64,000 nt of DNA. It comes from an uncultured Actinomycetota bacterium. Its GTDB lineage: Bacteria; Actinomycetota; Actinomycetes; JACCUZ01. The DNA is taken from positions 736 to 64,735 of the forward strand of contig CAWBMM010000018.1 in the NCBI GenBank assembly GCA_963789855.1. Direction: 5' to 3'. Shown here in pieces: positions 1 to 26,660 of the stretch. Under the pieces are notes generated by a model. That model saw only the letters and a program-made list of their open reading frames with translations, did no database searches and was not told the DNA's origin. The stretch's first letter is position 1. Every line of letters begins with the position of its first letter. The position numbers and the translations under genes were made by a program.

Positions 1-330
1 TGCACCGTTGGCCTTGTAGTAGGTGATCGTCGCCCGCGCGGTTGCCCGGTCGGGAGCAGCGTTGACGGCTTGAGCACCGCTCGGCGGCCAGGCGCACGGC
101 AGGTTGACTCCCGCGGTCTGGATCTCTGCATAGCTGGCGTCGATGCCGGCCTCGGCGGCATTCAGCGCGACCGTGTGTTGGCGGTCCTGACCACTTCGCT
201 GGTTGGCCGAGATGGCGACCGCGACAACGAGCATGCCAAGGCTCATGGCCACCCCCATGACCATCATGGCGATGACCAGTGTCACACCTTCGTCCCCAGA
301 AGGCCGACGAGTGTAGAAAAGGCGGTGCAT
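1..330 (-). CDS. PilX-like pilus assembly protein, N-terminal part (runs off the left edge)
   Basis: Own translation from ATG at 330: MHRLFYTRRPSGDEG|VTLVIAMMVMGVAMSLGMLVVAVAI...ALNAAEAGIDA. It has a class III signal without E5 and the AAEAGI motif of PilX N-termini. GGAG RBS upstream. Confidence 0.8.
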   Translation of the reverse strand, partial: MHRLFYTRRPSGDEGVTLVIAMMVMGVAMSLGMLVVAVAISANQRSGQDRQHTVALNAAEAGIDASYAEIQTAGVNLPCAWPPSGAQAVNAAPDRATARATITYYKANGA

Positions 331-340
331 AGCGGTCTCC

Positions 341-950
341 TCAGGGGGTGGGCATCGGGTTGCAGATGCCTGGGTCGTAGCCGTATGCCGTGTTGCGTCC
401 GGACAGCGAGCTCGTGACGGCGATGGGGGCGCCCTTCGCGTCGGGCGACTTGATCAGCAGGTTCACGTCGATCAGCCTCGACCCGTAGGCCGTGCTGCCG
501 CCTTGCAGCGCAAACGGCGGGGTAACGCTCGTGTTCACGACGTTGCGCGAGACGGTCGACCACGCCGAGACCTGGCCGTCTGTCTGCCAGGTAGGTGACC
601 ACGAGCGACTGCGCAGAACCGCGCCACTTACCTGCCACTGCACGCAGCGCTGCAGCCCGTTCGCCTGGGTGTAGACCCGCATCGACAGCGGCAGCGGCTC
701 GGTCGTGGGGTTGTACAGCACGTTCCCGGAGCGGACCTGCTGGTCGATCTGCTGAAGGGCAATGCGTGCGTCGCCCACCGCATCGGCCCGAGCGGTCGTG
801 TCACGTGCCTGCCGCTGGACGGTGATGAGCACGGCGTACGTCGCGGAGAGCACGATCGAGAAGATCGTCATGGTGATGAGCAGCTCGACCAGGGTGACGC
901 CGGAGTCCGAGCCGCGCCCGCGGCGGAGGTGCTGGAGATACTTCAGGCAC
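341..950 (-). CDS. PilW/PulJ-like minor pilin
   Basis: C-terminal part of ORF 341..1477: ...DSG|VTLVELLITMTIFSIVLSATYAVL...ARIALQQIDQQVRSG. Start is approximate (GTG near 950, probably one indel). Confidence 0.8.
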
Positions 951-2745
951 TGGGGGCCGCCTTGTAGGTCGACTGAGCGATGGTGCTGCCAAGGTCGGTG
1001 GTGACGACGAAGCTGCCGATGCTGACTCCGTTGTCGGCTACGTCGTACTGGATCAACGCCCGAACCCCGCCGACAGTGGCGACAGCGGTGCATGCGGCGG
1101 TAGTGACGTTCCAGACCCGGGACCGCCGTCACAGGATCGACGGTGACCGTTCCGGTCATGGACAGCGTGAGATCCGGATGGCCGGAGATCTTGTACACGC
1201 CTGTGGCCGTCCCGAGCGTGTACGTGGCGCCGCCACCGGTGGCAGGCAAGGTCACCGCGGTGTACCCGGAGCCGTTCCAGTAGCGAAGAGGGTTGGTGCC
1301 ACGGGAGGCGCCGGGCGCTCCGGGGTGATGCCGGCCTCCGCGGACGCCTGCGCGCTGAAACCGTCCAGCTGCACCATGGAGGTGAAGCCGGCCGGCACGA
1401 TGTCGCCTCCGCTTGCGGACGCCAGACCGCCTGCAGTGACCGCACCGAGCGTTCGGCGCGCCCCTGCAGCCACGCAACCGATCCGCTCGTGCCCGTGCAA
1501 TGACCGGACACCGGAGGCCGCTCTGGCGCCGAAAGACCGCCAGGTGTTGGCGACCGAAGGCGTTGCGATGCTTGCCAGGGTGACGTCCCCAGGTTCCTGT
1601 CCGCTCAGGTTCAGTGCCATCGTTGCGCTGTAGACGCCGTCAGGGGTCACGCTGCCGCTCGAGCAGGCCTGGTTCGTCACCAGCCCGGTGCCCGAGTCAT
1701 CGGCACACGCCGGCGACGCTGTGGCGACGGTGGTCGAAAACGCCGACCCCGTGCCGGTCGACGGGATGGACACGCTGAAGCTCCCGTTGGCACCGGATTG
1801 CGAAGCTGCTCGAGGAGCCCGAGAAGTTCACGCCGGTGACTGACGTCGGCGAGTTCGGCAGTCCGCTCGAAGGATCAGTGTCCGCTGCGGAGGTGCCCGA
1901 CTGGCCACCGATCGAACTGGTGCCCGACGAGGTCTTCACCGAGCCGCTCGACGTCGTCGTGATGTCCTCGTCGAGACGATCTGCTCGTTCTGGGTCCGGG
2001 CAGACAGCGAGGGCATCGTGGCCTGGAGGCCGAGGACGTCGATGCCGGACACCAGCGGCTGACCCTTGGTCACAGGAGACACCGAGATGCCCGCTGGTGC
2101 GATGCCGCCGTCGGAGTAGAAGAAGGCCTGGCACGGTCCCGCGAACGGGCGGGTCGCCGTTGATGTGGAGCTGCAGCCGGCCGGCGAGAACAGTCGGGAC
2201 CTCACCGCGGTCGCCTTGCTGACACCCTTGGTGTTCGCGCTCGCCCAGTTGACGACGACGGTCAGGAAGTAGCCCTGGTCGCTGGTCGTGCTGACCTTGC
2301 TGACGTACGTGCGCACGCGGTACTGGGTGTTGCCGATGTGCGTTGCGGCGCCGTTCTGCACATGCGGCCACAACGGCCCGGTGCTCGCGCCGCTACAAGC
2401 GTTCGAGTTGGTCACGAGGGTCTCGGACACACTCGGGTCGTACGTCGGTCGGAACAGGGTGCCGGAAATGTTCGGGTCACCGGCGACATCACAGGATCGC
2501 AACCCCGAGGTGACCGCGTCGTAGGGCAGAGCGCGAAGCTGTTCCATGGTTCGGTTCGCCATAGCGGTGGCCTGCTGCCGCTCCTTGGCGAGAGCGACGC
2601 TGCCGAGCGAGCTCACTTGGAGGGTGACCAGGCCGAGCAGGCAGAACGCGATCACGAACATCGTGATGACGACCTCGATCAAAGTGAAGCCGTCGTCGGT
2701 CCGGCGGAGCAGCCTGTTCCGGATGCGTGCAGTGAGAGACTTCAT
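943..2745 (-). CDS. Large PilV-like minor pilin with long Ser/Thr/Gly-rich C-terminal region (~600 aa, several frameshifts)
   Basis: MKSLTARIRNRLLRRTDDG|FTLIEVVITMFVIAF... The reading continues through ORF pieces 1697..2371, 1252..1773 and 341..1477 to ...QSTYKAAPSA* (stop 943-945). Confidence 0.7.
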
Positions 2746-3201
2746 GGGCAGACTCCGCGTCCCGAGACCGCTCGACGCGGTGAACTTGTAGGTCTTCGTC
2801 GACCCCTTGGGGTCCGTCAGCGAGACGCACCAGTTGAGGGGGTCACTGAGGTTCGAGGACGCTCCGATCGTGGGGGCCGCGGTTCCGTTGGTCAGGTTGA
2901 CCAGCTCGGCGTAGGACCCGTCTGTCACGACGACAGCGCCTGGCTGGCTCGCGAAGTCGAGAAGCAAGGTCCCTTGTCCGTCCACGAAGTAGGTGGCCAC
3001 CTCTTTGCCGAGGTGGTTCACGTCGGCCTTGGTCGACGCGTCGTGAGCCTTCGCCCGCTGGCTGAGGAAGACCGGGATCGCGATGGCCGCAAGAATGCCG
3101 ATGATGATCATCACAACGAGGAGCTCGATCAGCGTGAAGCCTGCGTCCGTCGGGGCGCCTGAGACGTCCTGGGAAGAGGCTGCAGAGCTGCGTGACGGCA
3201 C
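2742..3201 (-). CDS. PilA-like type IV pilin (third, divergent copy)
   Basis: GTG at 3201 after an AAAGGAG RBS; DAG|FTLIELLVVMIIIGILAAIAIPVFL...NWCVSLTD. Removing one base gives ...GLGTGVCP* with an ATGA overlap onto the next gene, so the fusion in the ORF track is probably an indel. Confidence 0.85.
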
Positions 3202-3257
3202 GCCCCTTCTCCTTTCGTGAGTGAGCCGCGGCCAGAACTGGCCGCTGCTGTGGAGGG

Positions 3258-3284
3258 ATCGACCGCTTGACCTAGCTTCTTGAG
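3258..3284 (-). promoter_or_regulatory. sigma28 (FliA/WhiG)-type promoter for pilin 3 and the minor pilins
   Basis: CTCAAG-N15-GTCGAT on the minus strand, same spacing as four other sites. Confidence 0.55.
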
Positions 3285-3338
3285 CGCACCGGGCAGGGCC
3301 GATCGGGCTACAGACTCCGACCGTCGGACCCCGGACGC

Positions 3339-3373
3339 AGCAGGGGCGGCCCCCGGAAGGGACCGCCCCTGCT
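3339..3373 (-). terminator. GC-rich hairpin (terminator or RNA-stabilising stem) after pilin 2
   Basis: AGCAGGGGCGG / CCGCCCCTGCT 11-bp inverted repeat, 15 nt after the stop codon. Confidence 0.65.
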
Positions 3374-3388
3374 CGAAGGCCTACCGCA

Positions 3389-3837
3389 TCACGGGCAGCT
3401 GCCCGGCTGGAGTCCAGCCGCGGCGGAGTACTTGTAGGTCTGCTGCTTGCCACTGGCGTTGGTCAGACCCACGCACCAGTTGACGTCGGTCGGCGTAGCG
3501 GTGAGCCGGCACCGCCGCCTGCAGAGCCGTGCCGTTGCTGACCTTGATCGTGGCGAACGTTCGCCGTTGTCGGCCAGCACGACATCGGCGCCGACAGCGG
3601 CCTGCGTCGCCGTCAGAACCGGGGTGGCGGCGGGCTCGACCCAGTAGGTGGCGATCTCCTTGCCCACCGTGGAGACGTCGGCCTTCGTCGAGGTGTCCCG
3701 GGCCTTCGCGCGCTGCAGAGGAACACCGGGATCGCGATGGCCGCGAGGATACCGATGATGATCATGACGACGAGGAGCTCGATCAGGGTGAAGCCCTGGT
3801 CCTTCTCCTCCATCGACTTACGAATGCGAGCGAGCAT
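3389..3837 (-). CDS. pilA: Type IVa major pilin PilA-like, copy 2 (frameshifted)
   Basis: MLARIRKSMEEKDQG|FTLIELLVVMIIIGILAAIAIPVFL joined to VGKEIATYWVEP...NWCVGLTNASGKQQTYKYSAAAGLQPGSCP*, with a C-terminal Cys pair. Confidence 0.85.
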
Positions 3838-3921
3838 CTGCTGTCCCCTTCAGGACGGTGAAGGATTCACGACTGTCCGCGGCGTCGGTACCCTGGCCGC
3901 GACCTTGACTCGAGCAACGAG

Positions 3922-3998
3922 ATCGGCTGACCGCGCCGCCTGGCCTTGAGGCCCGCCTACGACTGAGTGCCGTACTGACCGGTGAAGCTCGATGACAC
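3922..3998 (-). promoter_or_regulatory. Degenerate copy of the c-di-GMP-I riboswitch leader, containing CTCAAG-N17-GCCGAT
   Basis: GTCATCGAGCTTCACCGGTCAGTACGGCACTCAGTCGTAGGCGGGCCTCAAGGCCAGG...CGCGGTCAGCC aligns with the pilin-1 leader GTCAACGAGCTGCACCGGCCAGAAACGGCACACCCGTCGCGAGGCGGGGTCGCAAAGCCAGG...CGCGGTCAGCC. Confidence 0.6.
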
Positions 3999-4073
3999 TG
4001 ACAGCAGGTGCCCGACGCACAGCCTGCGCGGCTGGCTCGGGCCCGTCCGCTCCGCCCGATCAGTCTAGATGCA

Positions 4074-4530
4074 TCAGCGGGCAGCTGCCGGCTGCGAGGC
4101 CGGCCGCGGCGGAGTACTTGTAGGCCCTGTCTGCTTGTCGCTGGCGTTGGTCAGACCCGCGCACCAGTGACGTCGGTCGTCGAGCCGGCTGAAGCGGCGC
4201 CGTGCCGCCTGCAGAGCCGGTGCCGTTGCTCGAGCCTTGACCGTGGCGACGTCGACGCTGTCGTCGGCCAGCACGACATCGGCGCTCGACCGCGGCCTGC
4301 GTCGCGTCAGAACCGGGGTGGCGGCCTCGACCTAGTAGGTCGCGATCTCCTTGCCCACCGTGCGGACGTCGGACTTCGTCGACGGAGTCCCGAGCCTTCT
4401 TGCGCTGGTTCAGGAAGACCGGGATCGCGATGGCGGCGAGGATGCCGATGATGATGATGACGACGAGGAGCTCGATCAGGGTGAAGCCCTGGTCCTTCTC
4501 CTCCATCGACTTGCGGATGCGAGCGAGCAT
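4074..4530 (-). CDS. pilA: Type IVa major pilin PilA-like, copy 1 (indels and an in-frame TAG at 4332-4334 in this consensus)
   Basis: Same leader as copy 2 (MLARIRKSMEEKDQG|FTLIELLVV), AAAGGAGG RBS, ends YKYSAAAGLAAGSCP. Confidence 0.8.
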
Positions 4531-4603
4531 GCTGATGCTCCTCCTTTCGGACCGTTGCGGTGAGCCTCGCCGCCGGTCCCTCGCGAGCACCCTGTGCGGG
4601 TGC

Positions 4604-4693
4604 TCGGCCGAGGCAGCTGGGCTGACCGCGACTCTGTCCGCGGTTCCCTGGCTTTGCGACCCCGCCTCGCGACGGGTGTGCCGTTTCTGGCCG
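4604..4693 (-). ncRNA. c-di-GMP-I (GEMM-I) riboswitch-like aptamer
   Basis: AAAC-GGCACACCCGTC-GCGA-GGCGGG-GTCGCAAAGCC-AGGG-AACCGCGG..TCGCGGT-CAG-CCCAGCTGCC. It has P2 with a GNRA tetraloop, the CGCAAAGC junction, P3 and a 3' GCTGCC end; P1 pairs CGGCC/GGCCG. Confidence 0.8.
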
Positions 4694-4718
4694 GTGCAGC
4701 TCGTTGACATAGAGATGT

Positions 4719-4745
4719 TTCGGTCACCGGCGCGTGCGCCTTGAG
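4719..4745 (-). promoter_or_regulatory. sigma28-type promoter for the riboswitch-pilA1 transcript
   Basis: CTCAAG-N15-ACCGAA about 25 nt upstream of the aptamer. Confidence 0.65.
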
Positions 4746-4868: not shown

Positions 4869-6107
4869 CTACTTGATCAGGTCGAAGATCTTGAAGATCG
4901 GCATGTAGAGGGCGATGATCATCGACCCGACGATGGCGCCGAGGAAGGCGATCATCAGCGGCTCGATCAGCGCGGTCAGCGCCTCGGTGGTCGCCTCGAC
5001 CTCCTGGTCGTAGAACTCCGCGATCTTGTGGAGCATCGTGTCGAGCGCGCCGGTGTCCTCGCCGACGGCCATCATCTGCACGACCATCGGCGGGAAGACC
5101 GGGTGGTTGCGCCAGCGGGCCGGCGAGCGACTCGCCGCTGCGGACGCTCTCCTGGACGTCGCGGACGCGCGTCGCCGACGACGACGTTGCCGGTGGTGTC
5201 GGCGACGATGTCGAGGCTCTGCAGGATCGGCACGCCGGACGTGCATCATCGTGCCGAGGTTGCGGGTGAACCGGGCCAGCGCGATCTTCTGGAACAGCGT
5301 GCCGAAGACCGGCATCTTCAGCTTCAGCGGGTCGACGACGTCGCGCACGCGCTCGCTTGTGCTTGACCTTGCTGCCAGACGACGACGACGGCGATCAGCC
5401 GACGACGATGAGGATCGGAGCGCACGATCTTGAGCGACGTCGACATGCATGACCAGGATCTGGGTCGGCGCCGGCAGCTGCGCCGCCGAGGTCGTCGAAC
5501 ATCTTCGCGAACACCGGAACGATGAAGAGCAGCATGCCGATGACGGCCAGGATCGCCATGACGAACACGACGACCGGGTAGGTCATCGCGGCCTTGATCT
5601 TGCCGCGCAGCTTGACCTCGGCCTCGTAGTTCTCGGCGATCTGCAGCAGCACGGCGTCGAGGAAGCCGCCGACCTCGCCGGCCCGCATCATGTTGACCAT
5701 CAGCGGCGGGAAGACCTTCGGGTGCTTGCGCCAGCGCCGCCGACAGCGCGCTGCCGGTCTCGACGTCGTTGCCGGACCTCGCCGAGCGACCCGCGCGAGC
5801 TCCTTGTTCTCGGTCTGCTCGGCCAGGATGTTCAGCGCGCGCAGCAGCGACAGGCCCGAGTTGATCATCGTCGCGAACTGCCGCGACATGACCGCGAGGT
5901 CCTTGAGCTTGACCTTGCTCGCCGAAGCCCGGGATCTTGAGTCTCGGTCTTCATGCCGGCCTTGTGCTGGCTGATGCTGATCGGCGCGTAGCCCATCTGC
6001 TTCAGCTTGCCGGCCACGGCGGCCTGGGACTCGGCCTCGAGCGTGCCGGCGACGATCTTCCCGGTCCGGTCCCGGACCGAGTACTGGAAGGTCAGCGTTG
6101 CTGCCAT
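4869..6107 (-). CDS. pilC: Type IV pilus platform protein PilC (T2SSF family, frameshifted)
   Basis: [27 protein letters not shown]..., [59 protein letters not shown]...MPIF. Confidence 0.92.
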
Positions 6108-6118
6108 CGTGATGCCTC

Positions 6119-7799
6119 TCAGCCTCGGCCGGTGAGCCGGTTGAAGTCTTCGACGTGGTGGCACTTCTCGAGGCCGGTCTCGTAGGTGATCCGGCCCTTC
6201 GTTCACGAGGTCGGCGAGGTGCTGGTCCATGGTGTGCATGCCGTGCTTGGCGCCGGCCTGCATCGCCGAGTAGATCTGGTGGGTCTTGCCCTCGCGGATC
6301 AGGTTGCGGATCGCCGGCGTGGCGACCAGGACCTCGGTCGCGACCGCCCGGCCCGTGCCGTCGCGCGGTCGTGCACAGGGTCTGGCAGACGACGCCCTGC
6401 AGCGAGCCGGCGAGCTGCGACGCGGACCTGCTGCTGCTGGTGCGGCGGGAAGACGTCGATGATGCGGTCGATCGTCTGCGCCGCGTCCTGGGTGTGCAGG
6501 GTCGCGAAGACGAGGTGGCCGGTCTCGGCCGCGGTCAGCGCGACCGAGATCGTCTCGAGGTCGCGCATCTCGCCGACCAGGATGATGTCGGGGTCCTGGC
6601 GCAGCACGTGCTTGAGCGCGTTGCGCGAACGACTGGGTGTCCTCCCCCACCTCGCGCTGGTTGACGAGGCACGTCTGGTGCCGGTGCAGGAACTCGATCG
6701 GGTCCTCGACGGTCATGATGTGGTCGCTGCGGGTGCGGTTCGCCAGGTCGACGAGCGAGGCGAGCGTCGTCGACTTGCCGGAGCCGGTCGGGCCGGTGAC
6801 GAGGACGAAGCCGCGCGGCAGCGAGCGCGAAGTTGGCCACCGACGGCGGCACGCCGAGGTCCTCGAGCTTCTTGATCTCGAACGGGATGATGCGGAAGGC
6901 GGCACCGAGCGCGTCGCGCTGCCGGTACACGTTGACGCGGAACCGGGCCCGGCCGGGCACGCGTGTAGGCGAAGTCGAGCTCGAGCTCCTCCTCGAACTT
7001 CTCCCGCTGCTTCTGGGTGAGGGCGGCGTAGATCACCCGCTGGATCACCGGCGGGGTGAGGATCGGCTCGTCCTCCATCTGGCGTCAGCTCGCCGTTGAG
7101 CCGGATCGCCGGCCGGGCGCCGGACGTGAGGTGCAGGTCGGACGCGCCGCTGCTCGAGGACGTGCATCGAGCAGGTCGTTGAGGTTGATGTCGTGCTCGT
7201 CGACCTCGGCCTCGGTCGTGCCACGCGTGTACGCCGACTCCTCGCGCCTCCGACTCGGCGACGCCCACACTCGGGATGCCGTCGACCGGCACGACGTCCG
7301 GGGCGAACGCGGAGGGCGCCGGCGGCAGCGGGCTCGATGACGGCGTGACCAGCTCGGGCGCGTACACGGTCGGCGCCACGTCCTCGGTGAACGGCGCCAG
7401 CCCGGCGATCAGCCTGGCGACGGCACCTCGGTCGGCGCGAGCGTCCAGAGCGGTCGAGCTCGTAGCGGCGCGGCGCCGCGGCTCGTACGCGGGCACCGCG
7501 TCGAGCGTCGGAACCGGCTCGTACGCGGGAGCCGGCTCGTACGCCACCGGCGCCTCGAGCGGCGGCGCGTCGTACGCCGGCGCGACCGTCTCGTAGGACG
7601 GCTCGAGCGGGTAGCCGCCCAGCGCGTCGGGAACGGGCGGCGCCACCTGGTCGAGCGGCGTCGATGACGGCTGCTCAGCGACGAACGAGTAGGTCCACCC
7701 GCTGGCGGGCGTCTCGTTCTCGGTGTCGGCCGTCGGCACGGGCACGGCAGCAAAGCCTCCCGGCTCGCTCGGCACCGGCTGGTATCCGGACGTCTCCAC
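6119..7799 (-). CDS. pilT: Retraction ATPase PilT with a long acidic/Pro-rich N-terminal extension (frameshifted)
   Basis: [50 protein letters not shown] and the AIRNLIRE motif. GTG start at 7799 after GAGAGGGG. Confidence 0.92.
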
Positions 7800-7861
7800 C
7801 TGTAGCCCCTCTCGACAACGTCGGCGCACCGCAGACCGCGGGACACCTGTCTCGCGAGAGG

Positions 7862-7888
7862 ATCGGCGGATCGGGGCCTTCGCTTGAG
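7862..7888 (-). promoter_or_regulatory. sigma28-type promoter upstream of pilT
   Basis: CTCAAG-N15-GCCGAT in the pilB-pilT gap. Confidence 0.7.
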
Positions 7889-7913
7889 CGCGACCGGCGA
7901 CCTTGCCAGGTCT

Positions 7914-9586
7914 TTAGACGACGACCCGGAGGATCTCGTCGATCGCGGTGATGCCGGCGAGCACCTTGTCCAGGCCGTCGTCGCGCAGGGTCTTCATGCC
8001 CTGCTCGCGGGCGACGTTCTCGATGACCGTGGCGGACGCCTGCTCGACGGCCAGCCGCTCGATCTCCTCGCGACACGACCATGACCTCGTGCAGCGCCAG
8101 CCGGCCCTTGTAGCCGGTCTTGGAGCACGCCGAGCAGCCGACCGGCCGGTACAGCGTCGGCAGCGGCTTGCCGTCGTCCCACGGGAAGCGCGCCGCGATC
8201 GAGCGCCTCCGCGCGTCGGCGTGTAGGCCTCCTTGCACTTCGTGCACAGCCGTCGGGCCAGCCGCTGGGCGAGCACGCAGTCGAGCGCGGAACCGACGAG
8301 GAACGGCTCGATGCCCATCTCGGTGAGCCGGGTGACGGCGCGACGGCGCGTCGTTGGTGTGCAGCGTCGAGAGCACGAGGTGGCCGGTGAGGGCGGCCTC
8401 GACGGCGATCTGAGCCGGTCTCGTGGTCGCGGATCTCACCGATCAGCACGATGTCGGGGTCGGACCGCAGGATCGACCGCAGCGCCGAGGCGAACGTCAG
8501 CCCCGCCTTGTTGTTCGTCTGCACCTGGTTGATGCCGGCGAGCCGGTACTCCACCGGGTCCTCGACCGTGATGACGTTGACCTCGGGCCGGCTGACGATG
8601 TTCAGCGTCGCGTACAGCGTCGTCGACTTGCCGGAGCCGGTCGGGCCGGTGACCAGGATCATCCCGTACGGCTTGGTGAAGCTGCGCGAGTAGCGCTCGT
8701 AGTTGGCCTCGGAGAAGCCGAGGTCGGCGAGGTCGAGGCGCGCCGTGGAGTTGTCCAGGATGCGCATGACGACCTTCTCGCCCCACACCGTCGGCAGGGT
8801 GGCGACGCGCAGGTCGATCTTGCGTGCCGTGGGCGTTCACCGAGAGCCGGCCGTCCTGCGGGATGCGCCGCTCGGCGATGTTGATGTCGGCCATGATCTT
8901 CAGCCGGCTGATCACGCCGGACTGGATCGCCTTCGGCGAGTGCATGACCTCGTGCAGCACGCCGTCGATGCGGAACCGGACCCGCAGGTCGTGCTCGGTC
9001 GGCTCGAGGTGGATGTCGGACGCGCGGTCCTGGATCGCCTGGGTGATGAGCAGGTTGACGTACTTGACGATCGGCGCGTCCTCGACGACCTCCTTGACCT
9101 TGGAGAGGTCGTCGTCCTCGTCGTCGGTGTCCATGACGCTGGTCAGGTCGTCGAGGTCGGAGTCCGCCCGGTAGTACCGGTCGATCGCACCGATCACGTC
9201 GGCGCGGGTGGCGACGACCGGCTTGACGTCCATGCCGGTCAGCGACCGGATGTCGTCGATCGCGAAGACGTTCGCGGGGTCGGCCATCGCGACGAGCAGC
9301 TTGCCGTCCTCGAAGCCGATCGGCATCGCGGAGTGCCGGCGGCAGACCGCGCCCGGCACCCGGCCGATCGCGGAGCCGTCGACGCTGAAGTCGGACGAGG
9401 TCGACGAAGCGCAGCCCGATCTGGGTGGCCAGCGCGGCGACGAGCTGCGACTCGGTGAGCACGCCCTGGTCGACGAGCACCCGGCCGAGGGCCCGGCCCA
9501 CCCGCTGCTGCTCCACGAACGCGGCCTCGAGCTGGTGCTGGGCTGACGAGCCCGCCCTCGAGCAGGATGTCGCCCAGCTGCTTCAC
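7914..9586 (-). CDS. pilB: Extension ATPase PilB (GspE/PulE family) with an N-terminal MshEN-like domain (frameshifted)
   Basis: [50 protein letters not shown], and tetracysteine CTKC...CSAC. Confidence 0.93.
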
Positions 9587-9675
9587 GCGCCGTCCCTTCC
9601 GAGCTCGTCTGCGGAGTACGAGATGCCCCTCCTGACCATCGGGTCAGGCGGGCTGTTCCTGAAGCCGTCGACCGC

Positions 9676-9843
9676 TCACCAGTGCGCGAGCAGCGCCGCG
9701 ACCTGGCCCATCGACCGGGCCAGCGCGGAGTCGGGCGGGACGGCGACCTCGGCACCTCCCGCGAACACCAGGGTGACCCGCACCGGCGGGTCCGGCTTCC
9801 GATGTCGCCCGATGCGCGCGACGAGGTCACGCAGTCCTCGCAC
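9676..9843 (-). CDS. Small hypothetical protein (~55 aa)
   Basis: GGGGGAG RBS right after the GTPase stop; MRGLRDLVARIGRHRKPDPPVRVTLVFAGGAEVAVPPDSALARSMGQVAALLAHW*; GC-rich third positions. Confidence 0.55.
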   Translation of the reverse strand: MRGLRDLVARIGRHRKPDPPVRVTLVFAGGAEVAVPPDSALARSMGQVAALLAHW

Positions 9844-9851
9844 CACTCCCC

Positions 9852-10427
9852 CTAGGCCCGGACGGCCTCGGCCTCGACCTCGTCGAGCACCGCGTAGAGC
9901 AGGGCGAGCAGGACGTTCTTGACCGACTCCTTGTCGGTGGCGTCGCAGCCGAGGATGGCGATGTCCGACGGGATGCTCAGCCGGTCGCGGACGCCCTCGA
10001 TGAGCGCGTGGTCGTCGCCGGCCGCCCGGTTGAGCGCGACGACGTACGGCACCCGGGCCATCGTGCGGAACGCGTCCAGGATGCTGACCGCCTCCTGCAC
10101 CGACTCCTCCCGCGTGGTGTCGATGAGCAGCAGGTAGCCGAGCATCCCCTCGCCGAGGATCTCCCACATGAAGTCGAACCGGTCCTGCCCGGGCGTGCCG
10201 AACAGGTAGAGCACCAGGTCGCGGTCGATGGTGATGCGACCGAAGTCCATCGCCACCGTGGTCTCGGCCTTGCGCTTGCGGGTCGAGTCGGTGATGCCGC
10301 GCTCGGTCGACAGGACGGTGATCTCGCTGATCGTGCGGATCAGCGTCGTCTTGCCGGCGGCGAAGGGGCCGGTGACGACGACCTTCACCGCCTGACCCCC
10401 GCGACGGCGGGCTCGTGCGGTCGCCAC
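9852..10427 (-). CDS. MglA/CvnD-like small GTPase (ATP_bind_1-type)
   Basis: GPFAAGKTT (G1), TTVAMDFG (G2), LFGTPGQDRFDFMW (G3), VALNR (G4-like). Confidence 0.9.
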   Translation of the reverse strand: MATARARRRGGQAVKVVVTGPFAAGKTTLIRTISEITVLSTERGITDSTRKRKAETTVAMDFGRITIDRDLVLYLFGTPGQDRFDFMWEILGEGMLGYLLLIDTTREESVQEAVSILDAFRTMARVPYVVALNRAAGDDHALIEGVRDRLSIPSDIAILGCDATDKESVKNVLLALLYAVLDEVEAEAVRA

Positions 10428-11751
10428 TAGAGACCCCTCACGCCGGCGATGAGCCGCAGCATCAGGCTGCGGTTGACGTTCGGGTCGCGCTCGATGACCG
10501 AGGCGGCCTCCGGGTCCAGCGACGTGGCGGTCGCGCCGACGACGTCGCCGAGCCCGCCCATCGACGCCGACGGCCCGGCCTGCACCTGCAGCGGACGGCG
10601 TACGGCGGGAGCGTCGGGCTCGTGGTCGTCGAAGTCCGCCTGCCGGCGCGGCAGGAACGGCTCGGGCCGCGACGGCACGACGTCCTGCGGCACGTGGGCT
10701 CCGCCGAGCATCGTCGGGCCGCTCGATGCCGGCCGACGCGGTCGCCAGCTCGCGCTCGTCGTCGCCGTCGGAGTCCGCGCTCGATGCTGACGTCCTCGGA
10801 GCCGAAGTCCGCTCGGCGCCGATCCGGCGTCATCGGATACCTGGTCGGACCCGGCGTGAGCGTCGGACACGTATCCGTTGCGGTCAGAACCGGCCGAATC
10901 GGCAGCGGGATGCGGCCGGAGTCGTCGCCGCGGCGGCCGGCGTCGGCTCGGCCGGCGACCTCCTGCACCGGCACGAACGGCTCGCCCTCCAGCGGTGCGA
11001 GCAGCCGCTGCCGGCGCACCACGACCGTGACGTGGTCCTCGCCCTCGCCGGTGTCCGGGCGGACCTCCAGCAGGCCGCGCTGCACGAGCGCCGCCAGGGT
11101 GGACACGACGGCGTACTGGCCGCTGCCGGTGAGGTCGACGAGCTCGGTGACCGTACGCCGGCCGTCGACCAGCGCGAGCAGCGCCCACTCCTCGCGGCTG
11201 ACCTGCGGGTCGGCGGGCAGCACGACCGGCATCGACAGCACGGCGCGCGGCGACGGGACGACCTCGGACACGGACTCCCACGCGACCCGGCGGGCCTCGG
11301 CGTCGGCCAGGACCTCCTCGACGGTCAGCGCGACGCCGACCTCGTCGGGGTTGGCCTCGTCCATCACGAACGCGAAGTCGCCGGTGTGCCAGCGCAGCAG
11401 GTCGAACACCGCGTCCACGGCCTGGTCGGTCGCCGCGCGGCGCAGCAGGTCGGCGTCCATGACGCCCTGCTCGAGCAGCGCGCGCACCACGCCGACACCT
11501 TCGCCGGAGGTCGCGGTCTCGACCGCAGCGGCCAGCGCCTCGTCCGAGACCGTGCCGCTGCCCACCAGGCGGCGGGCCAGCGGCTGCCGGGAGCTGTCCG
11601 CGGAGGCACCGGTGACCTGGCCACCGGCGAGGAAGACGACGCCGTCGGACCCGTCCTGTGCCAGGTGCAGCCCGCCGCTCTTCTTGGTGAAGCTCAGCAG
11701 CTGGAACACGTCCGGCAGGCTGAACGCGTCGAGCGAGCCTTCGAGCTTCAC
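10427..11751 (-). CDS. DUF4388 (PatA-N-like) domain protein with winged helix and disordered C-terminal region (frameshifted)
   Basis: MKLEGSLDAFSLPDVFQLLSFTKKSGGLHL...LLRWHTGDFAF...EWALLALVDGRRTVTELV, ending ERDPNVNRSLMLRLIAGVRGL*. Confidence 0.8.
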
Positions 11752-11752
11752 G

Positions 11753-12338
11753 TCAGCTCCAGCTCGGTGGGCCGGCCGGGGTCTCGGCCGGCGTCTCCGC
11801 GATGTAGTCGTACGTCGGCTGGGCGACCACCTGCAGCGGCGCGGGCGCCGGCGGCAGCGGGGACACCCGGGCGACCGGCTCCGGAACCCACGCGGGCTCG
11901 AGCGAAGGCTCGGCGACCGTCTCGTAGGACAGCTCGGCCCGCAGCGCCTCGGCCACGACGGCCGCTGCCCGGCGTACCTCGAAGAGCATCAGGCCGACCT
12001 TGGCGCCCTTGGCGGCGACCGCCACCAGGACGGCCTCGTCGTCGGCCGAGATCAGGAAGACGGTGCCTTCCTCACCCTCGATGTAGACCTGGGACAGCTG
12101 GCCGCGGCCGAGTCCCTCGGCGGCGCGCTCCCCGAGGGAGAGCAGCGCGGCGCTCATGGCGGCCACCCGGTCCTCGTCCATGCCCGACCGGCAGGGCCGA
12201 GGCCATCGCCAGCCCGTCGAAGGACACGACCGAGGCCGCCTCGATCTCGGGAACCTGGCCCACCAGCTCGGACAGGATCTGGTCCAGCCGGCTCGACCTG
12301 CTGCTGCTCGTCCCGTGGTCGCCCAGTGCTGCGCTCAT
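11753..12338 (-). CDS. Roadblock/LC7 (MglB-like) protein with a Pro-rich tail (frameshifted)
   Basis: VPEIEAASVVSFDGLAMASALP joined to DEDRVAAMSAALLSLGERAAEGLGRGQLSQVYIEGEEG...KVGLMLFEVRR. Confidence 0.88.
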
Positions 12339-12401
12339 CGTCCACCTCGTGCCGCTCCCGCCGGCTCAGGCCTGTGCCTGTCCGGTACCGTCCATGGACC
12401 C

Positions 12402-12428
12402 ATCGGCCGGAGCGGCCAGCGCCTTGAG
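12402..12428 (-). promoter_or_regulatory. sigma28-type promoter heading the roadblock-DUF4388-GTPase operon
   Basis: CTCAAG-N15-GCCGAT between aroE and the roadblock gene. Confidence 0.7.
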
Positions 12429-12458
12429 CGGGGCGGGACGAACCCGGGCCGAACCGGC

Positions 12459-13288
12459 TCAGACGCGCAGCGCGCGCTCGCCGGCGGCCCGCATCACCGG
12501 CGCCAGCTCGGCCGGGTCCGCCTCGACGCCGGTCATCAGGGCCACCTGCAGCACGGCCTGGTGCACCAGCAGGTCCAGCCCGTCGACGACCAGCGCCTGC
12601 CGGGCCACCCAGGCGGCGGCCAGCGGGGTCGGCCACGGGTCGTAGAGCACCTCGAACAGCGCCCCGACCTGCCGCGGCACGGCCGGGACCAGCGCGGTCG
12701 GTGGCCCCGGCGGCGGTGGTGCTGACCACCAGCGGTGCGTCCAGCCCCTCGGCGGCCCGGGCCCACGGCGCGATCTCGAGCTCGACCCCGGCCCCGGCGG
12801 CGGCGCTCTGCAGGCCCGCGTGCCGCGCCGGGTCGCGCACGTAGGCGCGCACCGACCGGGTGACCGACGACAGCGCGACCACCGCCGAGCGGGCCGTCGC
12901 TCCCCCGCCGAGCACGCACGGCCCGGTCGACGCCGGCCACCTCGTGCGCCGCGAGCGCCGCGACCATGCCGGGCACGTCGGTGTTGACCCCGACCCGCCG
13001 GCCCTCCCGCAGCAGCACGGTGTTGGCCGCGCCGACCATCTCGACCACCGGCGAGGCGGCGTCGAGCAGCGGCAGCACGGCGGCCTTGAGCGGCATGGTG
13101 AGCGACAGCCCCGCCCAGCTCCGGTCCGAGCCCGGCCAGGAAGCCCGGCCAGGCCGGCCTCGTCGACGTCGTACGCCGTCGTAGGTCCAGCCCGTGAGCC
13201 CGAGGTGCTCGTACGCCGCCCGGTGCAGCACCGGCGACAGCGAGTGCCCGATCGGCGAGCCGAGGACGGCGGCCCGTCGCTGCGTCAC
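12459..13288 (-). CDS. aroE: Shikimate dehydrogenase (frameshifted)
   Basis: AVLGSPIGHSLSPVLH, GLSLTMPLK, GAANT, NTDVPG, EVLYDPWPT, GLDLLVHQA. Confidence 0.92.
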
Positions 13289-23578: not shown

Positions 23579-25401
23579 CTCGTGCGCGGGCTCGGCGGCT
23601 CTCCGGGCTTCACCGGGTCGGCAGCACTGGACGGCGCCGGCGCCGGCACCGGCGCCGCGTCCACGCCGGTCTCCTTCCGCTGCTCCGGCGGCACCGGCGC
23701 GGGTGCGCCGGTCAGCGGGTCGTAGCCGCCGCCGCTCTTCGGGAAGGCGATGACGTCGCGGATCGACTCGCTGCGGGAGAGCAGCGCGCAGATCCGGTCC
23801 CAGCCGAAGGCGATGCCGCCGTGCGGCGGGGCGCCGTACGCGAAGGCGTCGAGCAGGAAGCCGAACTTCTCCTGCGCCTCCTCCTCGGAGAGCCCCATCA
23901 TCGCGAAGACCCGCTCCTGCACGTCGCGGCGGTGGATACGGATCGACCCGCCGCCGATCTCGTTGCCGTTGCAGACGATGTCGTAGGCGTACGCGAGGGC
24001 GTTGGCCGGGTCCTGCTCGAAGCGGTCGATCCACTCCGGCTTCGGCGAGGTGAAGGCGTGGTGCACTGCGGTCCACGCACCGGCACCGACCGCGACGTCG
24101 CCGGAGGCCCGCGCCTTGGCCGACGGCTCGAACAGCGGCGCGTCGACGACCCAGAGGAACGACCAGGCGTCCTCGTCGACCAGCCCGCAGCGCCGGCCGA
24201 CCTCGACCCGGGCTGCGCCGAGCAACGTCTGGGACGGCGTCGGCTCCCCCGCGGCGAAGAACACGGCGTCACCGGGCGCCGCGCCGGCGTGCCCGACGAT
24301 GCCCGCGCGCTCGGTCTCCGAGAGGTTCTTCGCCGTGGGCCCGCCCAGCTCGCCGTCCGCGCCGACGAGGACGTAGGCAAGACCGCGGGCGCCCCGGGAC
24401 TTGGCCCAGTCCTGCCACGCGTCGAGCTCCTTGCGCGACTGGGACGCGCCGCCGGGCATGACCACCGCACCGACGTACGGCGCCTGGAAGACCCGGAACG
24501 GCGTGCCGGCGAAGAACTCCGTGCAGTCGACGAGCTCCTGCCCGAAGCGCAGGTCGGGCTTGTCGGTGCCGTAACGGCGCATCGCCTCGGCGTAGGTCAT
24601 CCGCGGGATCGGCAGCTCGATGTCGTGACCGATGAGCTTCCAGAGGGCGACGAGCACCGCCTCGGCGGTCTCGAGGACGTCGTCCTCGTCGACGAAGCTC
24701 ATCTCGATGTCCAGCTGGGTGAACTCCGGCTGCCGGTCGGCCCGGAAGTCCTCGTCCCGGTAGCACCGGGCGATCTGGAAGTAGCGCTCCAGGCCCGCCA
24801 CCATCAGCAGCTGCTTGAACAGCTGCGGCGACTGGGGCAGGGCGTACCAGCTGCCCGGCGCGAGCCGCGCGGGAACGAGGAAGTCCCGGGCACCCTCGGG
24901 TGTCGACCGGGTCAGCGTCGGCGTCTCGACCTCGACGAAGTCGCGACCATGCAGCACGTCGCGGGCCGCCCGGCTCACCTCGCTGCGCAGCCGGATCGCC
25001 GCGGCGGGGGCAGCGCGCCGCAGGTCGAGGTAGCGGTAGCGCAACCGCACCTCCTCGCCCACCTCGACGTGCTCGTCGATCTGGAACGGCAGCGGTGCCG
25101 ACTCGTTGAGGACCGCGACGTCACTGGCCACCACCTCGATCTCGCCGGTCGGCAGGCTCGGGTTTGCGTTGCCCTCCGGCCGGACGCTGACCTCGCCGAC
25201 GACCTTGAGCACGTACTCGTTGCGCAGGCCGGCGGCGACCGCCTCGTCGCGGATCACCACCTGCACGAAGCCGGACGCGTCGCGCAGGTCGATGAAGGCG
25301 ACGCCGCCGTGGTCGCGTCGCCGGGCGACCCAACCGGTGAGGGTGACGGTCTGGCCCGCGTGCGACGCGCGCAGCACACCGGACTGGTGGGTGCGGATCA
25401 T
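23575..25401 (-). CDS. aspS: Aspartate--tRNA ligase (probably non-discriminating type)
   Basis: [62 protein letters not shown]. Confidence 0.97.
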
Positions 25402-26657: not shown

Positions 26658-26660
26658 CCG

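What the first reader, a model, noticed from the sequence alone, without database searches (positions are those of the whole stretch)
9676..12428. MglB-DUF4388-MglA-like module attached to an actinobacterial type IV pilus locus: candidate polarity switch
Seen: roadblock/LC7, DUF4388-wHTH, small GTPase and a small ORF are tightly coupled (1-nt gap or overlap between the first three). They lie directly upstream of and co-oriented with pilB-pilT-pilC-pilA and share the same promoter motif. Known: MglA/MglB set pilus polarity in Myxococcus and Thermus. The usual actinobacterial relatives (conservons) include a sensor-kinase-like CvnA and DUF742, and both are absent here. Inference: a kinase-less module, with DUF4388 as adaptor or GEF-like partner, that positions or reverses twitching pili in a monoderm. 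I know of no characterised example, but cannot search to confirm novelty.
Basis: partly seen in the sequence, partly recalled or inferred. Interest (0 to 1): 0.82.

Follow-up and report, generated by a model that had tools for sequence, protein, structure and literature searches.

The report
GTPase switch wired to actinobacterial pili

Summary
On the minus strand lie a roadblock gene, a DUF4388 (PATAN)+winged-helix gene, a small GTPase and a conserved 56-aa ORF, directly upstream of pilB-pilT-pilC-pilA. The breaks in these genes are single-base assembly errors; contigs of four public runs lack the extra bases.

The order Robl-PATAN-GTPase-PilB is kept in 58 of 60 fetched loci with room. In a 401-genome class sample, PilB lies downstream on the same strand in 99 of 99 genomes with both genes on one contig. 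Related genomes carry the same pil operon without the cassette, and three same-family genomes lack both.

The GTPase is conservon-like (44% to CvnD, GTPGQ, no arginine finger), forms its own clade and has deviant G4/G5 motifs.

A complex model (0.79; best control 0.00) docks the PATAN protein's invariant C-terminal helix into the alpha5/beta2-beta3 pocket, where MglB's exchange-promoting helix binds MglA.

WhiG-type promoter motifs precede the cassette and several pil genes.

Best reading: a kinase-less, conservon-derived G-protein switch that acts on the pilus motor through the PATAN domain. Polarity control is untested. This is a new variant of known kinds.

The parts
12403..12428 (-). WhiG/sigma-28-type promoter-like motif (CTCAAGG-N15-GCCGATGG, i.e. 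TCAA-N16-GCCGA) upstream of the roadblock gene
   Evidence: The same motif lies upstream of the roadblock gene in 62 of 74 related loci (70 of 74 relaxed), against 140 (243) of 5000 random 350-nt windows. It matches the published WhiG2 consensus T(A/C)AA-N16-GCCGATAA (PMC12871210, passages).
11753..12338 (-). Roadblock/LC7 (MglB/CvnB-like) gene. One extra G near 12189 splits it in this assembly
   Evidence: Pfam PF03259; frames; insertion relative to G023; 35% identity to G000's CvnB; domain conserved, C-terminal tail variable.
10427..11751 (-). PATAN (DUF4388) + wHTH + disordered linker + invariant C-terminal helix protein. Frame-shifted within about 10720-10960 in this assembly
   Evidence: Pfam PF14332 82 bits, MarR_2 below cut-off; tblastn in two frames; alignments A1/A2; AF2 model.
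9852..10427 (-). Small Ras-superfamily GTPase, MglA family, conservon-like. G1 GPFAAGKTT, G2 ETTV, G3 GTPGQ, G4 LNRAAG, G5 CDAT
9676..9846 (-). Conserved micro-protein gene (56 aa here, 36-170 aa in relatives). N-terminal GRH(R/S)R motif and C-terminal VxLxFxDGxxVxL...AALL motif. No known family
   Evidence: conservation; no Pfam match; Atlas: only unnamed actinobacterial clusters, scores under 0.9.
9637..9663 (-). Conserved promoter-like motif before pilB (TTCAGGAAC...CCCGATG). The -10 is like the WhiG type; the -35 differs
   Evidence: The pattern derived from these sequences is found in 27 of 66 loci against 31 of 5000 background windows.
7914..9586 (-). pilB extension ATPase with an N-terminal MshEN c-di-GMP motif. 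Carries at least 6 single-base insertions (plus one 2-base gap) in this assembly
7863..7888 (-). WhiG-type motif before pilT (CTCAAGC...GCCGA)
6119..7829 (-). pilT retraction ATPase with a long Pro-rich N-terminal extension (frame-shifted here; ends approximate)
4872..6164 (-). pilC platform protein (frame-shifted here; ends approximate)
4720..4745 (-). WhiG-type motif (relaxed match) before the major pilin gene
4060..4530 (-). Pilin gene (pilA-like; N-methylation motif GFTLIELLVV). The 3' part is unreliable in this assembly

Best explanation
This is a dedicated accessory regulator of the adjacent type IVa pilus machine. It is a kinase-less G-protein switch, related to the actinobacterial conservon.

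Proposed parts and roles:
- The small GTPase cycles between two nucleotide states.
- The roadblock protein is its GAP-type partner (inferred by homology to MglB/MfpD).
- The PATAN-wHTH protein binds the GTPase through its invariant C-terminal helix. The helix sits in the pocket formed by helix alpha5 and the beta2-beta3 hairpin, where the C-terminal helix of MglB drives nucleotide exchange on MglA (modelled, not shown).
- The PATAN domain is the output. It contacts PilB and/or PilC to switch pilus assembly on or off, or to place it (inferred from cyanobacterial PATAN regulators).
- The role of the conserved micro-protein is open.

The cassette and several pil genes carry WhiG/sigma-28-type promoter motifs, so they are probably made together.

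Shown here: the genes, their coupling, synteny, phyletic pattern and motifs. Modelled: the GTPase-PATAN contact. Inferred: GAP and GEF roles, PATAN-PilB contact, and any effect on pilus number, timing or polarity.
For: 1. Domains: Robl_LC7, DUF4388 + wHTH, small GTPase.

2. Translational coupling: the PATAN stop and GTPase start lie within -4..+3 nt in 38 of 38 loci.

3. Synteny in 80 loci from named public genomes:
- Robl upstream in 76 of 76 with room.
- GTPase downstream in 78 of 78.
- PilB downstream in 58 of 60 with at least 3 kb of room.
- The two misses have a degraded PilB hit (L041) or PilB about 11 kb further on (L092).

4. Class sample of 401 genomes: 111 have both genes listed and 99 of these have them on one contig. 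In 99 of 99, PilB lies downstream on the same strand. Median distance is 1.07 kb; in 15 genomes insertions of 5-16 kb lie between. Where examined, the inserts carry Wzy_C or glycosyltransferase genes.

5. One-way dependence:
- G033, G036 and G037 have mltG-aroE followed directly by pilB, with no cassette.
- Same-family G013, G014 and G275 (84, 98 and 95% complete) lack both.

6. Complex model:
- ipSAE 0.79; best of 3 controls 0.00.
- The mark was reached by 58 of 80 solved complexes and 2 of 110 mismatched pairs.
- The runs agree in at least 41% of contacts; partner pLDDT is at least 64.
- My own alignments and a riding GTP were used, so the calibration holds only roughly.
- Interface: PATAN protein residues 414-436 against GTPase residues 62-76, 89-97 and 166-188.

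7. That C-terminal stretch is the most conserved part of the PATAN protein.

8. Literature:
- The MglB1 Ct-helix binds the alpha5/beta2-beta3 pocket of MglA and is the GEF element (PMC11016934, passages).
- DUF742 MfpC is the GEF and roadblock MfpD the GAP of MfpB (PMC11343762, passages).
- The PATAN domain of PixE binds PilB1, and PatA-type regulators bind PilB1 and PilC (bioRxiv 10.1101/2021.06.11.447907, abstract and passages).

9. WhiG-type motifs before Robl, pilT and the pilin genes. A FliA_WhiG sigma factor is present in G000 (283 bits, cut-off 190). WhiG drives T4P genes in Rubrobacter and Actinoplanes (PMC8325347, passages).

10. The genes are intact in nature.
Against: - No experiment of any kind bears on function.
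- Synteny is counted among relatives, which are not independent. Inherited gene order can persist without a shared function.
- The complex pass may partly reflect the model's memory of MglA-MglB (6IZW). It says nothing about PilB.
- PATAN-PilB contact was not modelled or tested here. It rests on distant cyanobacterial homologues with a different architecture (PATAN-REC).
- 39 of 150 PilB-positive genomes in the class sample lack the cassette, so pili do not need it.
- 25 genomes list the PATAN protein but no PilB at E<=1e-200. Many are fragmented or frame-shifted assemblies, and G000 itself fails that threshold. True cassette-only genomes are not excluded.
- The canonical G4 Asp is not conserved (N133-R134 invariant, next two positions variable, D139 nearly invariant), so the nucleotide bound is uncertain.
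- pilB's own upstream motif matches the WhiG query in only 3 of 66 loci.
Confidence: 0.6

Rival explanations
1. The cassette is a transcription regulator. The winged helix of the PATAN protein binds DNA and, under GTPase control, switches the pil operon or other genes on or off.
For: - The wHTH matches MarR_2 (24.8 bits, cut-off 27) and folds as a three-helix wHTH in the model.
- The cassette sits just upstream of the operon it could regulate.
- Conservons affect gene expression in Streptomyces (PMC13343842, passages).
Against: - The wHTH region is acidic to neutral (median net charge -2, range -5 to +2 over 38 sequences). Its putative recognition helix is mostly hydrophobic.
- The related DUF742 wHTH protein MfpC acts as a GEF, not a shown DNA binder.
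- In cyanobacteria, the PATAN domain is the output to the pilus motor.
Confidence: 0.12
2. It is a general conservon-like signalling module whose output is not the pilus (for example envelope glycans, development or c-di-GMP turnover). It lies next to pil genes only because that gene order was inherited in one large clade.
For: - All carriers belong to one class, and the position after alaS-ruvX-mltG-aroE is also conserved.
- In G029 and L092 the first genes downstream are glycosyltransferases and a methyltransferase.
- 25 genomes list the PATAN protein without PilB at the threshold used.
Against: - PilB is still downstream on the same strand after 5-16 kb insertions in 15 genomes.
- Cassette and pilB are lost together in three same-family genomes.
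- Promoter motifs are shared with pilT and the pilin genes.
- The PATAN family has a shown link to PilB/PilC.
Confidence: 0.15
3. The invariant C-terminal helix is a membrane-targeting amphipathic helix, not a GTPase-binding element. The PATAN protein is a membrane-tethered scaffold, independent of the GTPase cycle.
For: - The helix has a conserved net charge of +2 at the extreme C-terminus, behind a long disordered linker.
- PatA-type regulators localise to the inner membrane through PATAN (abstract).
Against: - The complex model places this helix in the GTPase pocket with low expected error. The control with another GTPase-sized protein scores 0.00.
- The same end-signature occurs in only one other ORF of 33104 in the genome: CvnC, the partner of the other GTPase (the pattern was written after seeing both).
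Confidence: 0.08
4. In this genome the cassette and the pil operon are decaying pseudogenes.
For: Frame shifts are present in the roadblock, PATAN, pilB, pilT and pilC genes of the window.
Against: - Essential alaS is broken too.
- The breaks in pilB and the roadblock gene are single-base insertions without stop-creating substitutions.
- Contigs of 1 to 4 of four public runs from four studies lack the extra letters at or beside 7 sites.
- Genome completeness is only 74.7% for a 21-contig assembly.
Confidence: 0.03

Closest known systems
Actinobacterial conservon / AGPS (CvnA-CvnB-CvnC-CvnD; Mfp system)
   Same: - Roadblock gene, then a wHTH protein, then a GTPase, in the same order.
- The GTPase is 44.5% identical to G000's own CvnD, with identical G3 (LYLFGTPGQDRF) and TT in G2. 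The roadblock is 35% identical to CvnB.
- The wHTH and C-terminal helix faintly resemble CvnC (hhalign E 0.0097 and 0.16; end-signature in 2 of 33104 ORFs).
   Different: - No CvnA kinase, and no DUF742 by Pfam.
- An N-terminal PATAN domain and a long disordered linker are added.
- G4 is LNRxxG instead of NxFD, and G5 is DAT instead of DAR.
- The GTPases form a separate clade (SH-aLRT 99, quick tree, no outgroup).
- The module is fixed next to T4P genes, and a true conservon is present elsewhere in the same genome.
MglA/MglB polarity module of Myxococcus xanthus and Thermus thermophilus
   Same: - Small MglA-family GTPase plus a roadblock partner, linked to type IV pili.
- The predicted helix-in-pocket contact (alpha5 and beta2-beta3) mirrors the MglB1 Ct-helix on MglA.
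   Different: - The Group 1 signatures are absent: no TVPGQ and no intrinsic Arg finger.
- Sequence similarity to M. xanthus MglA is only E 0.005.
- The helix is supplied by the PATAN protein. The roadblock tail is variable and Pro-rich.
- The genes lie beside pilB, unlike mglBA.
- A polarity function is untested.
PatA-type PATAN-REC regulators of cyanobacteria (PixG, PixE, TaxP-like)
   Same: - PATAN/DUF4388 domain with a helical insertion.
- That family's PATAN domain is the output that binds PilB1 and PilC.
   Different: - The input is a small GTPase module instead of a phosphorylated receiver domain.
- The C-terminal part is a wHTH + linker + helix.
- The host is a monoderm actinobacterium.
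- Binding to PilB was not tested here.
WhiG (sigma-28 family) control of type IV pilus genes in Rubrobacter and Actinoplanes
   Same: - Promoter motifs matching T(A/C)AA-N16-GCCGA precede the cassette, pilT and the pilin genes.
- A FliA_WhiG sigma factor is encoded in G000.
   Different: - The families found here (Sporichthyaceae, Acidothermaceae, Nanopelagicales, Frankiaceae and relatives) are not among those named for T4P targets in the passages read.
- No GTPase, roadblock or PATAN gene is mentioned in either paper (0 occurrences; PATAN was searched only).

Membership tests
MglA family, Group 1 (MglA proper; Wuichet & Sogaard-Andersen 2015) | G3 motif TVPGQ | tested here: not met
   G3 is GTPGQ, invariant in 38 of 38 sequences. 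Definition from PMC4316618, passages.
MglA family, Group 1 | Intrinsic arginine finger next to the G2 threonine | tested here: not met
   G2 reads ETTV (T56 and T57 invariant), so Thr stands in place of Arg.
MglA family, Groups 2-5 | GTPGQ in G3 and Thr in place of the Arg in G2 | tested here: met
MglA Group 2 = conservon CvnD/MfpB | G4 NxFD and G5 DAR | tested here: not met
   The module has LNR-x-x-G (N133 and R134 invariant, Asp position variable, D139 nearly invariant) and C-D-A-T. G000's CvnD and 17 relatives have NCFDG and DAR.
MglA Group 2 = conservon CvnD/MfpB | Encoded in a cvnA-cvnB-cvnC-cvnD operon | tested here: not met
   There is no kinase gene. Upstream neighbours are aroE, mltG, ruvX and alaS. 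No DUF742 at E<=10.
MglA Group 2 = conservon CvnD/MfpB | Falls inside the CvnD clade in a tree | tested here: not met
   80 module GTPases and 18 CvnD sequences are split by one branch (SH-aLRT 99). This was a quick IQ-TREE run (the careful search was unfinished) with no outgroup.
MglA Group 5 | G4 consistent with [NT]KxD; occasional PATAN neighbours; some actinobacterial members | tested here: inconclusive
   G4 is not NKxD. No Group 5 reference sequence was on hand. The paper's Table S2, which lists members and neighbourhoods, is a supplement and could not be read.
Roadblock/LC7 (MglB, CvnB, MfpD) | Robl_LC7 domain over Pfam's cut-off | tested here: met
   66.9 bits against a cut-off of 23 for the intact G007 orthologue; 43.2 bits for the window's truncated ORF.
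Roadblock/LC7 (MglB, CvnB, MfpD) | GAP activity on the cognate GTPase | not testable with these tools
   Needs a GTPase assay.
M. xanthus-type MglB | Conserved C-terminal helix that binds the GTPase pocket | tested here: not met
   The tail after the domain is variable in length and sequence, and Pro-rich.
PATAN / DUF4388 | PF14332 over cut-off, with an alpha-helical insertion | tested here: met
   81.9 bits against a cut-off of 25. The model shows the beta-alpha-beta3 core, a four-helix insert at 57-118, then beta-alpha; pLDDT 91.
PatA-type response regulator | PATAN fused to a REC receiver domain | tested here: not met
   No REC domain. A wHTH, a linker and a helix follow instead.
DUF742 (CvnC/MfpC) | PF05331 match | tested here: not met
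   Not listed at E<=10 for three C-terminal halves. The profile comparison with 16 CvnC sequences is weak (E 0.0097 for the wHTH, 0.16 for the end helix).
Type IVa pilus system | PilB, PilT, PilC and a prepilin with an N-methylation motif in one locus | tested here: met
   T2SSE/MshEN, T2SSF and N_methyl. TIGR01420 scores 496 against a cut-off of 319. TIGR02538 scores 660, just under its cut-off of 675.65.
WhiG/sigma-28 regulon | T(A/C)AA-N16-GCCGA within 200 bp of a start codon | tested here: met
   Window 12403-12427, about 65 nt before the roadblock start. Found in 62 of 74 related loci.
WhiG/sigma-28 regulon | Transcription start and WhiG dependence | not testable with these tools
   Needs TSS mapping, ChIP or a whiG mutant.

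The most novel reading that the evidence does not exclude
The cassette is a conservon whose CvnC has been fused to a PATAN domain and whose kinase has been dropped. That would make it the first actinobacterial G-protein system with an identifiable effector route.

In this reading, GTPase state is read by the CvnC-type C-terminal helix and passed through PATAN directly to the pilus motor. The PATAN helical insert resembles the c-di-GMP-binding MshEN module of PilB/MshE/PilF. It lets the switch pair with PilB's own MshEN domain or sense c-di-GMP. Transcription (WhiG), motor (MshEN) and switch would then all answer to one second messenger.
Probability: 0.25. Interest if true: 0.85.

Novelty: new variant of a known kind. 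Interest (0 to 1): 0.7.

Why it matters
- In the passages read, the effector of the conservon GTPase MfpB is stated to be unknown, and signal transduction through AGPSs is described as poorly understood. A relative hard-wired to one molecular machine gives a concrete read-out.
- Regulation of type IV pili in monoderm actinobacteria is so far known mainly at the level of WhiG-dependent transcription. This cassette would be a post-translational layer.
- It is not a curiosity of one genome. About a third of a 401-genome class sample carries it, as do about three quarters of the PilB-positive genomes listed. Carriers include Sporichthyaceae, Acidothermaceae, Nanopelagicales, Frankiaceae and the cultured Longivirga aurantiaca.
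- A small GTPase, a roadblock protein, PATAN and type IV pili recur together in Myxococcota, Deinococcota, Cyanobacteria and now Actinomycetota. This points to an old or repeatedly assembled design.

Tried and rejected
- Sigma-70 consensus promoters and intrinsic terminators in 9300-12700: none found.
- Genome-wide scan for the pilB-type motif: 3 hits against about 12 expected, so no enrichment.
- Pfam DUF742 on the C-terminal halves of the PATAN protein: nothing.
- Pfam MshEN on the PATAN helical insert: nothing.
- NCBIfam: no family for the roadblock or PATAN proteins.
- PDB sequence search with the GTPase: best hits Rab27A at 8e-5 and M. xanthus MglA at 5e-3. This does not discriminate.
- Foldseek against PDB with the whole PATAN protein and with the PATAN domain alone: 0 matches at E<=0.001.
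  - Weak hits to GATOR1/SEAC subunits appeared for the full-length model only (E 0.33-0.99). I recall these as longin/roadblock proteins.
  - Repeated local hits to MshE-N, PilF-GSPIIB and PilB-N (E 0.6-1.9, rmsd 1.6-2.0 A over 53 columns) are leads only.
- Small ORF: no Pfam family. The Atlas gave only unnamed actinobacterial clusters scoring under 0.9.
- Pseudogene reading: rejected.
- An outgroup (MglA, Group 5) for the GTPase tree could not be obtained. Control genomes carry no handles.
- Kimura et al. 2019 (Actinoplanes pili) is not held.
- The single complex job went to GTPase-PATAN, so PATAN-PilB, PATAN-PilC, GTPase-roadblock and CvnC-CvnD were not modelled.


Full report
WHAT IS THERE

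The window (G000:C18:736-64735) has about 73% G+C. The feature lies on the minus strand. Reading 5' to 3' on that strand:
- a promoter-like motif at 12428-12403
- a roadblock/LC7 gene (12338-11753)
- a DUF4388 (PATAN) gene with a winged helix (11751-10427)
- a 191-aa small GTPase (10427-9852)
- a 56-aa ORF (9846-9676)
- pilB (9586-7914), pilT, pilC and pilin genes

Upstream lie aroE, mltG, ruvX and alaS. Roadblock and PATAN are 1 nt apart. The PATAN stop overlaps the GTPase start by 1 nt.

THE BREAKS ARE ASSEMBLY ERRORS

In the window as given, the roadblock, PATAN, pilB, pilT, pilC, aroE and even alaS genes are split over several frames. Several results point to assembly error:
- Against the closest relative (G023), the differences in pilB and the roadblock gene are single extra bases in the window.
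- Contigs of four public soil or rhizosphere runs from four studies were laid on 7800-12400. Contigs of one to four of them lack one letter at or beside 8070/8071, 8340, 8413-8415, 8825, 9397, 9536/9539 and 10722; all four runs do so at 8825 and 9539. The site near 12189 is not in the rows shown.
- G000 scores only 74.7% complete although it has just 21 contigs.
- The relative G007 (2 contigs, 95% complete) has the whole locus intact: roadblock 176 aa, PATAN protein 436 aa from the conserved MKLEG start, GTPase 191 aa, PilB 554, PilT 572, PilC 427, and pilins.

THE FOUR PROTEINS

Roadblock.
- The Robl_LC7 domain is highly conserved. The tail is Pro-rich, of variable length, and has no conserved helix.
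- It is 35% identical to the genome's conservon CvnB.
- G000 has only these two roadblock genes.

GTPase.
- It is extremely conserved (79% mean column identity over 38 sequences).
- Its motifs are G1 GPFAAGKTT, G2 ETTV and G3 GTPGQ. By the criteria of Wuichet and Sogaard-Andersen (PMC4316618, passages), this excludes Group 1 (true MglA: TVPGQ plus Arg finger) and places it with Groups 2-5.
- It is 44.5% identical to G000's CvnD. A canonical conservon lies on contig C11.
- In place of the Group 2 G4/G5 motifs NxFD and DAR it has LNRxxG and CDAT.
- In a quick maximum-likelihood tree, 80 module GTPases and 18 CvnD sequences fall on either side of one long branch (SH-aLRT 99). The careful search did not finish and there is no outgroup.
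- Against solved structures it is no closer to MglA (E 0.005) than to Rab proteins.

PATAN protein.
- The layout is: a confident PATAN domain with a four-helix insert (1-165); a wHTH (186-231); about 150 disordered residues containing a conserved VPPRPEPFLP patch; and an invariant last stretch, ERDPxVNRSLMLRLIAGVRGL, modelled as a helix.
- No solved fold matches at E<=0.001.

Small ORF.
- The window's C-terminal 35-residue peptide finds the same position (between the GTPase and pilB) in 30 loci at E<=1e-4. About 19 weaker hits share the motif VxLxFxDGxxVxL by eye.
- That set holds 87 loci with a GTPase or PilB hit (of 89 searched). Six are second copies of the same genomes. My printed '55' counted rows, not loci.
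- Full ORFs are 36-170 aa and carry an N-terminal GRH(R/S)R motif.
- It has no known family.

IS THE LINK TO PILI MORE THAN LOCAL?

Fetched loci.
- A scan of one genome per species with the PATAN alignment found 211 relatives. The best 80 were fetched.
- The roadblock gene lies upstream in 76 of 76 loci with room. The GTPase lies downstream in 78 of 78. PilB (at least 65% identity) lies downstream in 58 of 60 loci with at least 3 kb of room.
- The two misses are L041 (a PilB hit of only 51% identity) and L092, whose PilB lies about 11 kb further on.
- In 16 loci, 1-2.9 kb lie between the GTPase and pilB. In three of the four examined, the insert is a Wzy_C gene.

Class sample.
- In a sample of 401 genomes of the class, 159 match the PATAN profile at E<=1e-15, about 136 of them at orthologue level. 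PilB is matched at E<=1e-200 in 162.
- Of 111 genomes listed for both, 99 have them on one contig. In 99 of 99, PilB is downstream on the same strand (median 1.07 kb from the PATAN stop, maximum 16.4 kb, 15 over 5 kb).
- 39 listed genomes have PilB only.
- 25 have the PATAN protein only. Many of those are fragmented or error-prone assemblies, and G000 itself fails the PilB threshold.

Nearest 41 genomes.
- 26 have both the GTPase and PilB orthologues and 7 have neither. Two incomplete genomes have the GTPase only, and 6 have PilB only.
- In G033, G036 and G037 the same pil operon follows mltG-aroE directly, with no cassette.
- Same-family G013, G014 and G275 lack both.

The pattern is one-way: pili occur without the cassette, while the cassette is essentially always upstream of pilB. 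Relatives are not independent, so these counts overstate the number of events.

Unpublished genomes. These tallies include unpublished genomes: G015, G030 and G038; G030, G048, G056, G060, G279 and G385. Leaving them out changes '99 of 99' to 98 of 98 and does not change the reading.

PROMOTERS

No sigma-70 consensus or terminator is found. The sequence TCAA-N16-GCCGA lies upstream of the roadblock gene in 62 of 74 loci (70 of 74 with one -10 mismatch). In random 350-nt windows of the same loci it occurs in 140 and 243 of 5000.

This is the published WhiG2 query, T(A/C)AA-N16-GCCGA(TAA) (PMC12871210, passages).

In the window, like motifs also precede pilT (7888-7863), pilA (4745-4720) and a second pilin gene (3284-3259). 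pilB has its own conserved motif (CTTCAGGAAC...CCCGATGGTC) with a different -35. It fits the WhiG query in only 3 of 66 loci.

G000 encodes a FliA_WhiG sigma factor (283 bits, cut-off 190). No FlhA was found (the genome is incomplete).

WhiG-family sigma factors drive pilus genes in Rubrobacter and Actinoplanes (PMC8325347, passages).

HOW IT MAY WORK

A complex model was built of the GTPase (38-row alignment, with GTP) and the full PATAN protein (38 rows).
- It scored ipSAE 0.79; the best of three controls scored 0.00.
- That mark was reached by 58 of 80 solved complexes and 2 of 110 mismatched pairs.
- The runs agree in at least 41% of contacts, and partner pLDDT is at least 64.
- My own alignments and a riding ligand mean the calibration holds only roughly.

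The interface is the invariant C-terminal helix (414-436) lying between GTPase helix alpha5 (166-188) and the beta2-beta3 hairpin (62-76), also touching 89-97.

In M. xanthus, the C-terminal helix of one MglB protomer binds the pocket formed by alpha5 and the beta2-beta3 loop of MglA. It is the allosteric exchange-promoting element (PMC11016934, passages).

The pass may partly be memory of that structure. Even so, the partner here is not a roadblock protein, and the module's own roadblock has no such helix.

In mycobacteria, the DUF742 protein MfpC is the GEF and the roadblock MfpD is the GAP of the conservon GTPase MfpB. The mechanism is unsolved (PMC11343762, passages).

The PATAN protein occupies the cvnC position. 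It has a wHTH, and it ends in a helix whose signature ([LMIV]xx[LVIM][LVI]xG[LVI]xxL at the very end) occurs in only 2 of 33104 six-frame ORFs of G000. The other is CvnC. I wrote the pattern after seeing both. Profile comparison is weak (E 0.0097 and 0.16). I rate 'CvnC derivative fused to PATAN' at roughly even odds.

For the output step I rely on homology. In Synechocystis the PATAN domain is the output of PatA-type regulators and binds PilB1 and the N-terminal domain of PilC (bioRxiv 10.1101/2021.06.11.447907, abstract and passages).

One lead, not a result: the PATAN helical insert superposes on the c-di-GMP-binding MshEN/GSPII-B modules of MshE, PilF and PilB (rmsd 1.6-2.0 A over 53 columns, but E 0.6-1.9). 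No sequence match exists.

The wHTH is acidic to neutral (median charge -2). This argues against DNA binding.

WHAT IS KNOWN AND WHAT IS NEW

Known:
- MglA/MglB and pili.
- Conservons (AGPS).
- PATAN genes occasionally near mglA/mglB genes (PMC4316618, passages; bioRxiv 2021, passage).
- PATAN-PilB binding in cyanobacteria.
- WhiG control of actinobacterial pilus genes.

I found no description of a roadblock-PATAN-GTPase cassette fixed upstream of pilB in Actinomycetota. This rests on five full-text searches and on the passages read. The 2026 AGPS survey of 485 genomes, as far as the passages shown, counts four-gene CvnA-D synteny only. The supplement of PMC4316618 may list some of these loci. 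It could not be read.

VERDICT

'MglA-like' and 'polarity switch' go beyond the evidence. This is a new variant of known kinds.

Noticed in passing
window 1-64000 (examples 8070, 8341, 8413, 8825, 9396, 9536, 12189, about 17331): The assembly carries many single-base insertions that break genes, including essential alaS. Contigs of four public runs lack the extra letters at or beside 7 sites (one to four runs per site). Any gene call in this window needs frameshift-aware reading.
   Followed up: yes
L045:12040-13914, L057:11380-12867, L099:12092-14155 (related loci): In 16 of 58 loci, 1-2.9 kb lie between the GTPase/small ORF and pilB. In three of the four examined, the insert is a Wzy_C (O-antigen-ligase-like) gene, possibly a pilin glycosylase. 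In G029 and L092, 11-14 kb of glycosyltransferase and methyltransferase genes lie there. In the class sample, 15 genomes have inserts of 5-16 kb.
   Followed up: partly
window 9420-9586 (PilB N-terminus); L013:7764-9428: PilB carries the MshE-type c-di-GMP-binding motif (NF053729, 57 bits, cut-off 38) ahead of its MshEN domain. The motor itself may therefore sense c-di-GMP.
   Followed up: no
window about 7200-7829; L013:7100-7759: PilT has an N-terminal extension of about 200 residues, Pro/Ala-rich and poorly conserved, before the ATPase domain. I recall this as unusual for PilT.
   Followed up: no
G000:C11:24877-28774: A canonical conservon lies elsewhere in the same genome (CvnA kinase-like, CvnB, CvnC, CvnD). 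It is conserved in 16 relatives' loci (CvnC was not found in one, L109).
   Followed up: yes
e.g. G084:C11:3335-4177, G044:C44:148815-150035 (open frames 730-890 aa); G000 has 3 PATAN matches: A second, much longer PATAN-domain protein (E 1e-40 to 1e-44 to the profile) is present in many of the same genomes. Its context was not examined.
   Followed up: no
window 25543-25568 (-), 58434-58459 (+), 50-74 (-): Further matches to the WhiG-type motif lie outside the cassette. Their downstream genes were not identified. The first lies inside the 3' end of ORF 25398-26660.
   Followed up: no
PATAN protein residues 57-118 (window about 11400-11580): The helical insert of the PATAN domain superposes locally on MshEN/GSPII-B domains of pilus ATPases (MshE, PilF, PilB-N; rmsd 1.6-2.0 A over 53 columns; Foldseek E 0.6-1.9, not significant). 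There is no Pfam MshEN match.
   Followed up: partly
window 1-4700 (-): Several pilin-like genes with N-methylation motifs, and a large gene of no family, follow pilA (as in G007, L013:1747-4009). They are probably minor pilins. They are frame-shifted here.
   Followed up: partly
G000:C3:355547-356224: A FliA/WhiG-family sigma factor is encoded, although no FlhA (flagellar export) gene was found in this 75%-complete genome. This fits a non-flagellar, WhiG2-type role.
   Followed up: partly
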